A stretch of DNA of 64,000 nucleotides, taken from positions 6,892,830 to 6,956,829 of the forward strand of contig CAVNZM010000008.1 in the NCBI GenBank assembly GCA_963693365.1, given 5' to 3'. Position numbers and translations under genes: made by a program. Each line of letters begins with the position of its first letter. Within the stretch, counting starts at the first letter, position 1. This DNA is from Amoebidium appalachense (taxonomy: Eukaryota; Protista; Ichthyosporea). The notes beneath the pieces are model-generated. The model saw only the letters and a program-made list of their open reading frames with translations, made no database searches and was not told the origin of the DNA. Of this stretch, positions 9,330 to 32,989 are shown piece by piece.

Positions 9330-10546
9330 CCGGCCGGAGTCGTAGAGCTCGGTGGATGGACGGACTGGTTGAGGACTGGTCGAGGACGTCGGAAGCTTTC
9401 TTGTAGGTGTCCCTGGTGGCGTAGCCTAGCCACTGGTTGGCTCAGCGCCGTCAACCCACTGTGGCCTGATAGCGTCAACGATCTCGGCAAGTTTTAATGA
9501 ACCGGTAAGAGGGCCCCACGAAATAAAAGACTCTCGGACGGAAATGGGAGGTGAAACGAGGTAGTATGAGAAGCAGAAGAGAAGAGGGTAGATGTGTAGC
9601 GTGAAGGGGCGAAATTATTGTGTAAAGAGAAGAAAATAAAAAAAGAGAAAAAACAAGGAGAGGGAGAAAAGACGACGAAAAGATCGGGAAAACAAAAAAA
9701 CAAAGCAACAGGCCGCAGCTGGGGGGGGGAGAAAAGAACCGCACAGCTTGTGATGCCCGAGTGCAGAAGAGAAATGAGAAGGAAATGGGGAAAGAGGGAG
9801 GGGGAGGCTAGACGACAATCACACCTTTAGTTGTGGGGAAAGGGGATGAGTGGAGGGTGGAAAGAAGAAGAGGGAACCCCGCTAAAGGGGACGAAAGAAA
9901 AGCTCCGCCCCCCCCCCTGGGGGGGGAAAAAAAGGAGGGGGGGGGGGGGGGGAGGGCATTGGGAAAAAAAAAGAGGAAGGGGGGCAACCCACCACCCAAA
10001 AAAGATAAAAAAAAGAAGAAGAACAAAAGAGGGGAGGGAAAAAAAAGAAGAAAAAAAGCTGGGTGGGGAGGATCGGGTGGCGTACCTGGGGCAAGGCGCC
10101 GAAATCGAAGGAAAATCTGAACACCATATATTGTACATTAATACATCAATATAGCGTTGCTAAGCAGTGACTGTGGCATAAGGAAAAAAATAATGAGAAG
10201 TGCAATATTGTTGCAATCAAAAGAAGTAAAAAATTAGCAATGTCGCATTTAGTTACATTCACATTTCACTATGAAATGACGTGCTAATCAAACATACCTG
10301 CACAGTTTAGCAGGTACAATATATACTAGTTCTCGACATACATGAAACATGCGTACACAATAAACTGACACTCGAGGATATGCTCTCAGCTTTTCCATTA
10401 TATAGTCGACGATATACATCAAACATCATAACACAATAATAAAATTTAATAAATCCACCGATATCCATCAGATCATCGAAATATGGAATCATGATTTGAT
10501 TTCAGAAGACATTTCTCCCGAAACGGCGACGCCGCATGCACAGCAA

Positions 10547-13500
10547 TCATCGGTTACGACCCATGTGCACGTACTTGTTCACAAGGAACTCCTCCTTTCC
10601 TCCTGCGGGTACTGGAAGGGGGATGCAGTGGAAAATTCCCAATATCGTTTCAACGTCCACAACGTCGTACCTTGGTATCCGCTGCAAGTTTGTACCCACC
10701 ATCTCCCAAGACAGTCTGCCACATCCTGTGTGCTGGTCCGGCTGTTTGCGCTCCACATAGTATCGGACGAACGCTAACTTATGGTCCAGGGTCTCGTTTC
10801 CTTCGGCTGACAAGGTCTGGCACACGAAAAGAAGCACCAACTTTGCGTAGTACTTAACGTCCTCACCCGCCTCGTCCGCTCCTCCCGCAATGACGACGTT
10901 GTCGTACCGATCCCGAGGGCCATAGAATGAATCGCACGCAACAACCCTGACCCAATGACTGGCGTCCGATTCCCCATCATCCAAACGTATGTAGCAGCTG
11001 TTGTATGGGGTCATTTTCTGGGAGCTGGGCACAGGAAGGGTGTGTCTAGCAACCCCACCTTGTTCGACCCCCCCCAGGTACAGTTGCAACTGTAGGGGGA
11101 GATACTTGAGGCACGCACCACGGTCGGTTGACAAAATCTTGTGAGGCGCGTACGAGCCGTGCGGGTTAAAAAACTTGTCCAATTCACCCAGCCACATAGC
11201 GGATTTGTGCTGTGGTCCGGACATCTGGGCCACCTCAACCGACTTCTGCAGGGGTGCATCCGCTGCAACCACCGGTGCAGGCTCAGGGAGGAGCTCGTCG
11301 TGTGCATCTGCCTCGTACAGCTCTTCCACCGTCAAATCCGGAAGCTCGTCAAGCACAACAACATGGGGTTCCTCCTTTTCCTGCAGTGCATCCCAAATAG
11401 CCCTGCGCAGATCCATGGCATCGAATCGACGTACCTTCACTGCAACCTGCATGTGTGCATGATGTGTTGTGTGTGTGTGTGTGTGTGTGTGTGTGTGTGT
11501 GTTGGGGGTGGGGGGGGGGGGGGGGGGGGGGGGGGGGCGTTATGCATGTAAGGATGGGTACCTGACGTACCAAAGGCACCTTATGTATGTGCATAGCTCC
11601 CTCTTTCAACATATGCTAGTGTATGTTACGACGTCAGGTCTATTATATATTTCTTATGCATTATACCTCGTGAAGCCCTCCTATGTATCCGTATACAACA
11701 TCTTAATGTGAAATGTGATTGTTTTTATGTTTTTCAACAAAAAAAAAAAAAAAAAAAAAGACAGAAAAAAATGGGGGAGGGGGAGGGGGCGAGGGGCAGG
11801 GGGGGGGGTTTCCAATTACATACACACACCTGCAAGATGAAGGTAGAGTTTTTGTTGGTCATTCGATACGGCATTTTGCAGTAGTGTTTGTGAGCACGCT
11901 CCCAGCTCTCCGCCGTCTCCACCGGACCAAACAGGCGGTAGTCGTCAGAATAATGCACACCAGCATGGAACTTTGCCGTTTTGAGTTGGTTCTTTGTGGA
12001 ATCTTTGAAGCACTCGTGCGCTGCCTTGCCAAACCTGTGTTTGCAATATGTGGTTAGTTTTGATTTCACCCTCGAATAGGATGTACTACTGTAGTGGTTG
12101 AATGTTTGCACAGGGAGCACCGTCCGAGTAAACCTGTAGTGATAGTAAGACATGTAAAACCTGGGAGGTGCGAGTGCGTTTCTGGATAGGGGTGGTAGGT
12201 TGGGTGTGTGCCGTGTGTGTTTGTCACGGTGTGTGTGTGTGTGTGTGTGTGTGTGTGTGTGTGTGTGTGTGTGTGTGTGGGGGGTGGGTGGGTGGGTGGG
12301 TGGGTGGGTGGGTGGGTGTGTGTGTGTGGGGGGGGGGGGGGGGGGGGGATACATACGTCTTGTACCGCTCGGTCATGTCGTCAAGTGACACCTCAGTGTA
12401 CTCACGACCTGTCACCATGCTGTACCACTCATTCCATGTAACAAACACTCTTGACGCTTTGGCGTTGGCGGTCGGGTTGTTTGTTTTTTGGATTAGATCC
12501 CGTACAACAAATGGAATGACCTGAGGTAGTGGTTTGGGGTGTTCAAGTGGAGGTGTGTGTGTGGGTGTGTGTTTAGTTGTGGGCAGGGGGGGGGGGGGGG
12601 GGGGAAGACATCAGCACGGGCAGGCAACAGTACAATGTGCAGCACACGTGCGTGTGTTCATCATACAGTGTAGCATACAACGGCAATAAACAGAGGGTAC
12701 GTGCAGGTATACACCTGACCATGATGATGCTATCGACGAGCACACAAAATTACTTTACAGCATGCACACACCAGGTTACGTTGCAATGATGAAACGTGGT
12801 ACCCCTTTCTCGTTTGCAGAACATCATGTACTTCAACAAGTTACTAGTACCTTCATGATGTCCCTGTATTCATTGGCCCGCATGAATGACAGGTCGGACA
12901 CGTTGCCAGAGAAATGGCGTAGGCCACTGTAGCGAGCCATCTCAATGAACCGCCGGTCAAATTCCCGAATGATGTTTGCAGCGGCGGAGTCTGCTGCGGT
13001 CCCCTCCCCGTGTGTCTGCTCACACACATACTTGACGTAGTGCTTGTACTCAATCATCATCTGCTTGAACACGCCGCTGTCACCTTGGTGCATGCGCTCA
13101 ATGGTGACACCCCATATCCACATGAATCCGGGGAAGTCGACGCAGGCGTTGTCATCGAAATCCGCCAGAGAGCTCATCTTCAACAGGTGTGTTGCTGTTG
13201 CCTTCGAGCCCGCATTGCCTTGGCGCAATTCATCCACCTTCTGTCGAATGGCCGCTACGTGGTCCTCATGGTTCATGGGACAGGTTTCCCAAACCTTGTA
13301 CAGATTCTCGCTGGTTACCCGGCACTTGTGGCATGGATGGGCCGTGGCCACCCCCCCCCTATGTAAAAAATAAGTGTATGCTTTGTCAGTAGAAGCCATG
13401 AACACGTTGTCGGTCCACTCAATATGGCATTTCGATTGCACACTCAAGCTGTCGTCGACGTCCATATGACGTACACAAGTATATGAATATCCACATTTCC

Positions 13501-30904: not shown

Positions 30905-31036
30905 GTCTCGCTCCTGTGGAACGAGACTTAAAAAATTTGTAACAAGTTGTGAGAAAAAACAAACCGTCAGGCCTGGTCTCTGCTCCAGTGGAGCGAGACA
31001 AAAAAGTACATCGACTCTGCTCCTGTGGAGCGAGAC
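30905..31036. repeat. Three copies of a ~23-24 bp palindrome (gtctcgctcc-nnn-ggagcgagac type) just after the cargo stop codon
   Basis: Copies at 30905-30927, 30976-30999 and 31013-31036. Confidence 0.8.
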
Positions 31037-32989
31037 GCAAAGAAACGTCTTTATGTGCTCTTCTTACCGTCTATTGTCATATTGTATGTGTCCTTACAGT
31101 GATTTTATGACGTTTGATGTATGATATCATTATCATACATGGAACATGCCATTATGCATGTAAGGATGGTTTTATGACGCACCAAAAAGCACATTGTGCA
31201 TGTGCATAGCACACCGTTACAACATATGCAAGTGCACATTACGACGTCAAATGTATTAATATGCGTCATCTACATTATATGTCGTAATGTCCTCCTATGC
31301 ATCTGTTTACAACATCGTAATGTAATCTGTAGTAGGATGCAAATCACATCTTATGATAGGTCATGGGATAGCACAAACCCACCCATGGTATATCCACTGG
31401 TTGTGTTTCGGATGTCGGAAAGGGCGCCGGAACGATTGGATTTCGATCTATTTTTATAATCAACTGGATGGGTTTGCAGTGCTCCATTGCATTGCTTTAC
31501 AACATACAATAGACATACATGTGATAGTCATAGGTATTTGATCAAGAGAGTATTAATACCATACATTCGATATGTTTACAATGCTCCGTTATATGGCTTT
31601 ACATCAGACCATAGACATGCATAAGATCGTCCACAGGGTGGCGTTTTGATCCTCCCGTAGACGGTGTTACGACTGTCTGAATGCTCCCTGGCCGCCGTCA
31701 TATACCCACCGACTAGACGTCGTATGTTGAATCTATTGCACGTCCATTGCACGTCAGTAAGATGGCTACATTGCACATCCATTGAACAAGCACTCGCGGG
31801 GGTCTATGTACGTCCATTGGTGCATCGGGTGTCGGACCGAGCATATTACGACACATCCATTGGACATCGGGGAGCAATGATATGTATTTGGGGTTAGTTT
31901 TGGAGGGGTTGAGGGGTTTCCGATGTCGTCGGGTAGTTTACGACAGCTTTTGGATGCCGCAACAAGATTGCTGATGGCCCATTGCTCCTTGTCCAGGTCA
32001 AGCTCCTTCGATGTTTCCTTAATGTTTCTCAGCTCTGAGCCATTCTCATGGCCCAAGATGTCGTGTCTAGTTTTCACAAAGAGGCGACTATCGTCACTGA
32101 GGCAGGTATAGTTGTTGATGCACACTGCTGTGATTCTAGAGCTTCCTGCCGCTACGTATTTGAAACTGATAACTTCTGCCCACGTCTGGCTTGTTGGGCA
32201 AAAAATCTCAATATCGGTCCCCGCCATAACTTTGTGACAGGCCAAACTTGAAGCAAACCGCTGAGAGAAACGTCGTTTCCACACCTGACAGTCTGTCAAA
32301 AATAAATAGGCTGGCACACAGCAAATTCCACGTTTAACACAACCAATCAATCGTAACTGGTTTGCACTCCTTGACCGAACCCAAGTTTTGCGGATATAGT
32401 TTTCATTGGTTATAGTAGGCCGTCTTGCATCGACGACCTACCGAGATGGGTAGATGCTTTTCACAACTTACTGTGTGCCGGCGAAGTATAAACTCGCTAA
32501 TACCTTGAACAACTTGGTGCAGTAAACGGCAAAAAAATGTTTAAATTAGTTATTTTTGGCTATAAACTTATAAATCTAAGTATTTCTGCCCTACTATATG
32601 GTTTTTTGCTATTCATTCACCCCATGGGCTTAATTCTCTATCCAGGGTCCCGGAGGGTACGCGGCGGCTATTGGTTGCCGGTCCGAATCGGCTCCTGAGA
32701 AGTCATATGAGCCGATTGGATGCGGGTATGCACATACGCCAAATGATTGGATGCGGGTATGCGCAGGTCAATTTCCCATTTCCACACAAATGGCCATATG
32801 GGGGGGGGGGGGGGGGGGGGGGGGGGGGGGGGAGAGAGAGAGAGAGAGAGAGAGAGAGAGAGAAAAAGAGAAAAGGGAGAGAGAGGGGAGAGCGCAAAGA
32901 AGGTAAGCAGACACGAATACAAACAAAGCTAAGACACATACATACTTCAAGACTCTTGCTGTCCTACGTAGTGACGTATTCCAACAGCA

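What the first reader, a model, noticed from the sequence alone, without database searches (positions are those of the whole stretch)
10128..31893. Giant Plavaka transposon carrying its own KDM4-like demethylase gene plus internal satellite arrays: candidate self-anti-silencing system
Seen: an apparently intact, intron-containing Plavaka transposase (putative catalytic D in YSDQT, D in ITDWPE, E in ESWER) head-to-head with a cargo gene. The cargo JmjC keeps H-x-E...H, the 2-OG Lys and all four KDM4-type Zn ligands, and the transposase introns hold two large satellite arrays. Known: KDM4 enzymes remove H3K9me3/H3K36me3; fungal Plavaka/KDZ elements are associated with TET/JBP genes; Arabidopsis VANDAL elements encode VANC anti-silencing proteins that bind tandem motifs within the element. 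Inference: this element may use an eraser, a targeting domain and cis arrays to de-silence itself. JmjC-bearing mobile or viral elements may already be reported in ichthyosporeans, so novelty needs checking.
Basis: partly seen in the sequence, partly recalled or inferred. Interest (0 to 1): 0.9.

Follow-up and report, generated by a model that had tools for sequence, protein, structure and literature searches.

The report
Plavaka transposon with skipped demethylase exon
A large jumping gene carries, inside the first intron of its second gene, a histone-demethylase-like coding block that the spliced RNA seen here skips and that another mobile element has split in this copy, so it is a possible but untested tool against silencing, not a shown self-defence system.

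Summary
Real but overstated. An intact 1,023-aa Plavaka transposase (8 exons, DDE and C2C/H3H motifs) lies head-to-head with a 659-aa accessory gene of no known family. The right end is 31,976 (TGATG, PlavakaB rule), not 31,893; no left end or target duplication was found. A KDM4-like block keeps the iron triad, Tyr/Lys 2-oxoglutarate contacts and four zinc ligands. A 4,877-bp Ngaro-like retroelement (20,675-25,551) splits the demethylase block here; 4 of 4 runs laid hold the empty site. And in the two runs with spliced joints, exon 1 joins 26,778 directly, skipping the block, which is probably an optional exon. The two arrays (183 and 366 bp) are real, unrelated to each other, and nothing ties them to the accessory protein. 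Giant Plavaka elements with chromatin-enzyme cargo and arrays are published (fungal TET/JBP; red-algal SET and 2OG-oxygenase, with the same VANDAL-like idea). I found no paper with KDM4-like cargo on Plavaka in six searches, but this scan's unchecked notes report JmjC-bearing Plavaka in mushrooms. New variant of a known kind; interest 0.5.

The parts
10547..19167 (-). Plavaka transposase gene, 8 exons: 19167-18640, 16751-16596, 16045-15681, 15469-15224, 13358-12851, 12520-12357, 12034-11830 (alternative acceptor 12133 adds 33 aa), 11446-10547; 1,023 aa; N-terminal C2H2-like motif
   Evidence: exon model from sequence, not from RNA
13489..14921 (.). 366-bp tandem array x3.9 in transposase intron 4; units 2-4 about 99% alike, unit 1 about 82%
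16850..18148 (.). 183-bp tandem array x7.1 in transposase intron 1; units 86-99% alike; abuts a duplicate of the exon-4 acceptor region (18147-18390)
19168..20132 (.). AT-rich spacer between the two start codons; inferred bidirectional promoter
   Evidence: 41% GC
20133..30887 (+). Accessory gene, 7 exons: 20133-20400, 26778-26991, 27666-27894, 28381-28710, 29106-29357, 29870-30043, 30375-30887; 659 aa: basic low-complexity N-terminus, unclassified core, acidic tail
   Evidence: joints exon1-2 (X9, X19) and exon2-3 (X9); no Pfam family
20564..20674 (+). 5' part of the KDM4-like coding block (candidate acceptor 20564, phase 1; in-frame ATG at 20581)
   Evidence: aligns to P0002 across the insertion point
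20675..25551 (-). Ngaro-like tyrosine-recombinase retroelement, 4,877 bp (Gag-like, RT/RNase H, YR), inserted in the KDM4-like block at a CC dinucleotide
25552..26406 (+). 3' part of the KDM4-like block with the JmjC core (candidate donor 26406, phase 1; unspliced frame stops at 26483)
30888..31976 (.). Right subterminal region ending in TGATG (reverse complement begins CATCAGCAA, as Plavaka-11_AB does)
10128..10546 (.). Sequence behind the transposase stop, abutting a copia-type element; the left terminus was not found here

Best explanation
This is a PlavakaB-type cut-and-paste transposon of at least about 17 kb net, with an intact transposase gene and a divergent accessory gene whose first intron holds a KDM4-like coding block that is likely an optional exon and that is split in this copy by a Ngaro-like retroelement. 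Shown: the layout, the right terminus, the insertion, the empty site in other samples, and a spliced RNA joint that skips the block. Inferred: in uninterrupted copies the block would be spliced in at low rate (phase 1 to phase 1, 981-aa product) or end a shorter isoform; that isoform would be an Fe(II)/2-oxoglutarate methyl-lysine demethylase; carried on the accessory protein's basic N-terminus it would lower repressive histone methylation on chromatin, including the element's own, and so help keep the element transcribed. The two arrays are probably incidental intron expansions, not binding sites. About 0.85 for the anatomy, 0.65 that the block is a genuine exon of the accessory gene, 0.45 for the whole account with a chromatin role.
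For: Transposase intact with all CMCT motifs. Terminus TGATG at 31,976, where contigs of X19 and X9 stop. DNA contigs of X1 and X8 cover transposase exon 1, spacer, exon 1, JmjC and later exons at similar depth; one X8 contig joins exon 1 to the JmjC core across the empty site (20,323-20,674 + 25,552-26,150, 0 other letters). Exon 1 donor to 20,564 and 26,406 to 26,778 are both in frame. The closest relative among 1.84 billion representatives, P0002 (E 2.5e-32), aligns from the start of the candidate exon (32% over 292 columns), has a basic low-complexity N-terminus, a 43-aa spacer where this gene has its 163-nt intron, and a donor-like peptide 27 aa after the C-x-C motif (28 here). Active-site columns kept against 82 homologues; fold closest to KDM4A, E 1.8e-13.
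Against: No joint into or out of the block among the 15 joints shown (156 more were cut), and the X9 and X19 contigs over the block run unspliced across 20,564. Its splice sites score far below the 13 other introns (acceptor -2.8 against 4.6-16.1; donor 2.4 against 6.3-12.9; the known scores are in-sample and so inflated). GC3 0.52 against 0.78 for the rest of the gene (148/284 and 512/660, p 3e-14) points to a separate origin or to relaxed selection. P0002's DNA was not seen, so its intron is a guess from the peptide. Pfam finds no JmjN; Asn198-equivalent is Ser and Ser196-equivalent is Ala. No left end or target duplication. Body depth only about 1-2 times the flank, so no sign of many intact copies. 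No activity data.
Confidence: 0.45

Rival explanations
1. The KDM4-like block is a passenger: a captured or relic coding segment lying in the intron, transcribed only as unspliced intron, with no benefit to the element. The working accessory product is the 659-aa protein without it.
For: Main joint skips it; weak splice sites and different codon usage; an insertion in it is tolerated while transposase and accessory frames stay open; long branch (1.01) in the tree.
Against: A 322-codon frame with no stop and all catalytic and zinc residues kept at 21-35% identity to homologues implies selection until recently; a relative at 32% identity appears to share the layout; 4 of 4 runs hold the uninterrupted site.
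Confidence: 0.3
2. One reading: the accessory protein binds the 183- and 366-bp arrays and brings the demethylase to them, a VANC-like sequence-specific anti-silencing loop.
For: Arrays lie inside the element; VANC targets often form tandem repeats (PMC5735166, abstract); red-algal Plavaka have arrays beside a DNA-binding 2OG-oxygenase gene; the periods, 183 and 366, are near one and two nucleosome repeats (recalled).
Against: The arrays are unrelated to each other (score 31 = 95th percentile of genomic controls) and hold no unusual inverted repeat (201 of 300 controls scored as high); no shared motif with spacer or ends; one array abuts a duplicated acceptor, as after a local rearrangement; shorter-period arrays are common outside the element; no DNA-binding domain identified; the RNA seen lacks the demethylase.
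Confidence: 0.13
3. The locus is a stranded or domesticated remnant: the accessory gene and its JmjC block now act as a single-copy host gene beside an immobile transposase.
For: Left end missing; low relative depth of the body and RNA-type joints of the accessory gene in two runs of different studies; PMC11244446 describes reader-less KDM4-like genes among host genes in Amoebidium.
Against: Transposase open with all catalytic motifs; sharp PlavakaB right end, about 4-fold deeper than the body in X1 and X8, and continuing into other sequence in an X19 contig.
Confidence: 0.12

Closest known systems
PlavakaB DNA transposons, CMCT clade, including TET/JBP-bearing families of Agaricus and Gymnopus (Kojima 2025, PMC12730594; passages read, one supplement row)
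   Same: PF18759 transposase with DDE, C(2)C and H(3-4)H motifs; TGATG-3' terminus, 9 of 9 first bases as in Plavaka-11_AB; carries a 2OG-dependent chromatin-enzyme-like gene proposed to counter silencing.
   Different: Cargo here is a KDM4-like JmjC (histone), not TET/JBP (DNA); it lies within an intron of another accessory gene; left terminus and target duplication not found; JmjC occurs 0 times in that paper's main text.
Giant Plavaka elements of Bostrychia and other red algae with PAG1-3 (bioRxiv 10.1101/2025.02.11.637652; passages read; supplements not seen)
   Same: 17-19 kb elements with accessory chromatin genes and internal tandem arrays; the authors make the same VANDAL-like self-modification proposal.
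   Different: Their cargo is an adenine methylase + SET protein and a ParB-like + 2OG-oxygenase protein, with arrays of inverted repeats beside PAG3, in very high copy; here the arrays are in transposase introns and the body looks low-copy.
Amoebidium KDM4-like genes of endogenised giant viruses, and its Plavaka-flanked giant repeats (Sarre et al. 2024, PMC11244446; passages, supplement legends)
   Same: Divergent KDM4-like JmjC without PHD/Tudor on parasitic DNA, proposed to evade H3K9me silencing; Plavaka transposases noted in the same genome.
   Different: There the JmjC genes are multi-exon and in viral insertions or host context, and the Plavaka repeats are tandem clusters of intron-poor genes, many for tyrosine recombinases; the text does not place JmjC in Plavaka. 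Figures S4C and S6C are pictures I could not see. I did not establish that this window is from that genus.
Human KDM4A/KDM4D catalytic core (PDB)
   Same: Fe triad, Tyr132/Tyr177/Phe185/Lys206/Trp208/Lys241 equivalents, Cys3-His zinc site, same fold.
   Different: 22-28% identity; Asn198 to Ser, Ser196 to Ala; no Pfam JmjN, PHD or Tudor; substrate unknown.
VANDAL/VANC of Arabidopsis (PMC5735166; abstract and outline only)
   Same: Transposon with an accessory gene and internal tandem repeats.
   Different: VANC binding and hypomethylation are shown by experiment; VANDAL is a MuDR-type element; nothing here shows binding or loss of a mark.
Ngaro tyrosine-recombinase retrotransposons (PMC8547959; passages)
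   Same: Order Gag-like, RT/RNase H, YR; inserts into other mobile DNA.
   Different: This copy has no internal A1..B1A2B2 repeat; an end-to-start joint and deeper ends in the runs suggest other copies do.

Membership tests
PlavakaB | Plavaka transposase (PF18759) | tested here: met
   E 3.4e-20 and 1.5e-08 on two exons
PlavakaB | DDE with C(2)C and H(3-4)H between second D and E | tested here: met
PlavakaB | 3' terminus TGATG | tested here: met
   31,972-31,976; contigs of X19 and X9 stop there
PlavakaB | 5' terminus CATCA matching the right end | tested here: inconclusive
   43 CATCA sites in 1-31,900, best score 21.5 = null 95th percentile; the end may be lost or lie outside the window
PlavakaB | 2-3-bp target site duplication | tested here: inconclusive
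   no left end, so no pair to compare; the CATCA at 10,144 has TA before it against GC after the right end
PlavakaB | dispersed copies | tested here: inconclusive
   right 1.1 kb about 4-fold deeper than the body; body about 1-2 times the flank; contig depth is no copy number; no genome held
KDM4 demethylases | Fe ligands H-x-E...H | tested here: met
   H140, E142, H226; same residue in 78, 81, 81 of 82 homologues
KDM4 demethylases | 2-oxoglutarate pocket Y132, K206, N198 (PMC9712658, passages) | tested here: inconclusive
   Tyr and Lys kept; Asn is Ser, as in 15 of 82 homologues. The pairwise PDB alignment set Asp against Tyr132; the 83-row alignment sets Tyr80 there, which I prefer
KDM4 demethylases | Cys3-His zinc site | tested here: met
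   C183, H189, C256, C258
KDM4 demethylases | JmjN domain | tested here: not met
   no Pfam hit on either piece at E up to 10; model confidence under 50 over residues 1-42; the segment is split by the insertion, which weakens the test
KDM4 demethylases | PHD/Tudor readers of canonical KDM4A-C | tested here: not met
   none on any accessory exon; KDM4D also lacks them (recalled)
KDM4 demethylases | groups with KDM4 orthologues in a tree | tested here: inconclusive
   pairs with P0002 (SH-aLRT 95) on long branches, outside the supported KDM4 cluster; quick tree, deep forks open
KDM4 demethylases | removes H3K9me3/H3K36me3 | not testable with these tools
   needs an enzyme assay
VANDAL/VANC-type anti-silencing system | MuDR-type element with a VANC homologue | tested here: not met
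   transposase is Plavaka; no family hit on the accessory exons
VANDAL/VANC-type anti-silencing system | accessory protein binds repeated motifs in its own element and removes silencing | not testable with these tools
   no shared motif between arrays, spacer and ends by sequence
Ngaro retrotransposons | Gag-like, RT/RNase H, tyrosine recombinase in that order | tested here: met
   RVT_1 E 1.4e-18, Phage_integrase E 2.7e-08; frames; Gag and RNase H assigned by position and motif, no Pfam hit
Ngaro retrotransposons | split direct repeats A1-ORFs-B1A2B2 | tested here: inconclusive
   absent in this copy; end-to-start joint in X1, X8, X9 and deeper end bins

The most novel reading that the evidence does not exclude
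A Plavaka family, with a distant relative represented by P0002, keeps a working KDM4-like histone eraser as a switchable cassette exon of its accessory chromatin protein, so that alternative splicing turns the element's anti-silencing enzyme on only at certain times; the enzyme may come from the same pool of reader-less KDM4-like genes that giant viruses carry.
Probability: 0.22. Interest if true: 0.85.

Novelty: new variant of a known kind. Interest (0 to 1): 0.5.

Why it matters
Transposon-borne anti-silencing has been shown by experiment only for VANDAL, by the account in the Bostrychia preprint; TET/JBP, SET and other 2OG-oxygenase cargo on Plavaka is untested. A KDM4-like enzyme would add a histone eraser to that list. 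The locus offers a natural test: an interrupted allele (this window) and uninterrupted ones (four runs) of the same element, and an isoform with and without the enzyme.

Tried and rejected
No whole genome is held, so copies could not be counted or compared. No read data cover the left end or the arrays, so their state in other samples is open. No RNA holder was listed as such; X9 and X19 are treated as RNA-containing only because they hold GT..AG joints absent from X1 and X8. I laid 4 of the 23 runs listed. X19 has no cover over transposase exon 1, the spacer or accessory exons 4 and 6, which proves nothing. Word-indexed protein searches found nothing for JmjC (longer; near) or accessory exon 4; atlas look-ups for exons 4 and 5 were blank; viral-contig scans were empty; none of this shows absence. 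The metagenome scan gave 2 loci: L001 a broken Plavaka with no cargo match, L002 a weak hit. PDB sequence searches of transposase exon 5 and accessory exon 3 gave nothing significant. A single-sequence fold failed (pLDDT 34). Viral fold matches were far weaker than KDM4A (best E 8e-08, 12% identity), so no viral donor is indicated. My recollection that the accessory core resembles fungal DUF6532 and that exon 3 holds a SAP/LEM-like motif got no support from per-exon Pfam scans and is not claimed. My first reading that Tyr132 was lost was dropped after the deeper alignment. Rejected: 366-bp unit as a dimer of the 183-bp unit; 10,128 or 10,144 as left terminus; an LTR pair for the neighbouring copia. 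Earlier-finding look-ups by place and sequence were empty.

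
Full report
Scope. No whole genome is held for this window. The work rests on the window, on assembled contigs of 4 of 23 listed public runs laid on 18,460-32,700, on protein searches and on papers. The organism was not established; it is an intron-rich eukaryote with many poly-G/C and CA tracts.

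Transposase. Eight exons on the minus strand from 19,167 to 10,547 join through 7 of 7 GT-AG introns into an open frame of 1,023 aa; the model comes from sequence alone. Two exons hit Pfam Plavaka. D317, D421, E698/E701, a C(2)C motif and an H(3)H motif are present, as Kojima 2025 describes for the CMCT clade (PMC12730594, passages), and they line up with a metagenome Plavaka (L001, 25% over 431 aa). That alignment favours the shorter exon 7. From the match to its TERLH motif, E701 is the likelier catalytic residue (inference).

Ends. PlavakaB elements run 5'-CATCA..TGATG-3' with 2-3-bp duplications. The window has TGATG ending at 31,976, whose reverse complement starts CATCAGCAA, the same nine bases that begin Plavaka-11_AB. 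An X19 contig matches 31,033-31,976 and goes on for 52 other letters; an X9 contig ends at 31,977. The right end is therefore 31,976, not 31,893. None of 43 CATCA sites in 1-31,900 resembles it beyond chance (best 21.5, null 95th percentile 21.5). On the left a copia-type element abuts the transposase's 3' region, with no LTR pair found. The left end is lost, degenerate or outside the window, and no read data cover it. Net of the insertion described below, 10,128-31,976 is about 17 kb.

Copy number. In DNA runs X1 and X8, contigs over transposase exon 1, spacer, JmjC and accessory exons have depths of 60-78 and 195-265; the flank beyond the right end has 45-78 and 111-153; 31,048-31,581 has 271-427 and 855-1,021. 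Contig depth is not a copy number, but the pattern fits a body in one or two copies at 90% identity or more and a terminus shared by several elements. Both runs differ from the window at scattered fixed sites, so they are other strains or haplotypes; they hold the same order of parts.

20,675-25,551 is a 4,877-bp retroelement with Gag-like, RT/RNase H and tyrosine-recombinase frames on the minus strand, several hundred times deeper than its surroundings in X1, with a second, deleted copy at 2,327-3,405 (99%). Gene order fits Ngaro (PMC8547959, passages); the split repeats are absent from this copy. The joint 20,674>25,552 is present in 4 of 4 runs. Read across the empty site, one frame runs from 20,564 through the JmjC core, and the closest relative P0002 aligns over both sides (32% over 292 columns). 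The insertion is thus inside coding sequence; with it the frame stops after 147 aa. This copy cannot make the enzyme from exon 1 or from ATG 20,581.

X9 and X19 hold a GT..AG joint from exon 1 (20,400) to 26,778, absent from X1 and X8; X9 also holds the exon 2-3 joint. The resulting gene has 7 exons and 659 aa, without JmjC. Separate X9 and X19 contigs cover the JmjC stretch but run unspliced across the 20,564 acceptor, at contig depths of 91 and 126 against 1,498 and 1,939 for the skipping joint; such depths are a poor measure of expression. Only 15 joints were shown and 156 were cut, so a rarer inclusion joint is not excluded. The run types are guesses by the tool.

Is the block an exon? For: 20,400>20,564 and 26,406>26,778 are both phase 1 and give an open 981-aa product; an acceptor at 26,673 would give 420 aa, and an own ATG 341 aa. 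P0002 (Logan, single-member cluster) has a basic low-complexity N-terminus, a 43-aa spacer where this gene has a 163-nt intron, and a donor-like peptide 27 aa behind the C-x-C motif against 28 here; I did not see its DNA, so this is inference. Against: weak splice scores and GC3 of 0.52 against 0.78. I put a genuine exon at about 0.65.

The enzyme. Best solved relatives are KDM4D by sequence (E 1.4e-14) and KDM4A by fold (model pLDDT 76.5; E 1.8e-13). Against 82 homologues the block keeps the iron triad, the four zinc ligands and the columns of Tyr132, Tyr177, Phe185, Lys206, Trp208 and Lys241 (these KDM4A pocket residues from PMC9712658, passages; other numbering recalled). Asn198 is Ser, as in 15 of 82; Ser196 is Ala, as in 8 of 82. 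A pairwise alignment had set Asp against Tyr132; the deeper one does not. No JmjN, PHD or Tudor was detected. In a quick tree of 76 rows (the query and 75 of 152 fetched proteins, taken in id order among those with a core of 150 aa or more) it pairs with P0002 (SH-aLRT 95) on long branches outside the supported KDM4 cluster; deep forks are open. It works like a KDM4 by anatomy; substrate and activity are untested.

Accessory core and arrays. No accessory exon matches a Pfam family, so the 'targeting domain' is unidentified. The arrays are real and homogeneous. They are unrelated to each other and lack unusual inverted repeats against genomic controls, share no motif with spacer or ends, and the 183-bp array abuts a duplicate of the exon-4 acceptor region. 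Shorter-period arrays occur outside the element (41 bp x9.6, 42 bp x12.3, 78 bp x6.3). Nothing ties them to the cargo.

Prior art. TET/JBP cargo on PlavakaB is published with an anti-silencing proposal. Red-algal Plavaka of 17-19 kb carry SET and 2OG-oxygenase genes beside tandem arrays, and the authors invoke VANDAL (bioRxiv 10.1101/2025.02.11.637652, passages; supplements not seen). Reader-less KDM4-like genes on endogenised giant viruses, and Plavaka-flanked giant repeats, are described in Amoebidium, without JmjC placed in Plavaka in the text (PMC11244446); its figures S4C and S6C could not be seen and may bear on this. Six full-text searches (listings only, except papers named here) gave no paper with KDM4-like cargo on Plavaka; the library lacks most subscription papers. 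This scan's unchecked notes report JmjC-like cargo on multi-copy mushroom Plavaka; I did not test them.

Verdict. A real PlavakaB-type element with a KDM4-like block inside it, most likely an optional exon of its accessory gene, dead in this copy and skipped in the RNA seen. A chromatin role for the uninterrupted form is plausible (0.45 for the full account); a passenger 0.30; the array-guided VANC-like loop 0.13; a stranded or domesticated locus 0.12. New variant of a known kind; interest 0.5.

Noticed in passing
window 18147-18390 and 15464-15667: The acceptor region of transposase exon 4 is duplicated in intron 1, directly against the 183-bp array, and still scores as a good acceptor (9.6); it could divert splicing into the array.
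   Followed up: partly
window 13489-14921 and 16850-18148: The two array periods are exactly 2:1 (366 and 183 bp) though unrelated in sequence.
   Followed up: partly
window 11540-11709 and 31152-31323: A 172-bp direct repeat, 78% alike, shared by transposase intron 7 and the right subterminal region.
   Followed up: no
window 2327-3405: Second copy of the Ngaro-like element on the + strand, 99% alike, internally deleted and cut short.
   Followed up: partly
window 4822-9425, minus strand: Copia-type element with long open frames but no LTR pair found.
   Followed up: partly
window 20401: The X19 contig over the JmjC stretch starts exactly at the first base of the intron; this could be an assembly effect or excised-intron RNA, and contigs cannot tell.
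   Followed up: no
window 27880: An X9 contig leaves accessory exon 3 into other sequence with an early stop, suggesting a truncated paralogue or strain variant.
   Followed up: no
window 31977-32437, minus strand: An open frame of no known family runs up to and across the right terminus and is covered in X9 and X19; the element may have landed in a transcribed gene.
   Followed up: no
window 35.2-37.3 kb and 60.7-63.4 kb: An intron-rich PhyH-family host gene, and remnants of a chromodomain-bearing gypsy-type element.
   Followed up: no
P0001 (Bemisia tabaci, 1,604 aa): A protein with 15 matched JmjC-like stretches came top by summed score.
   Followed up: no
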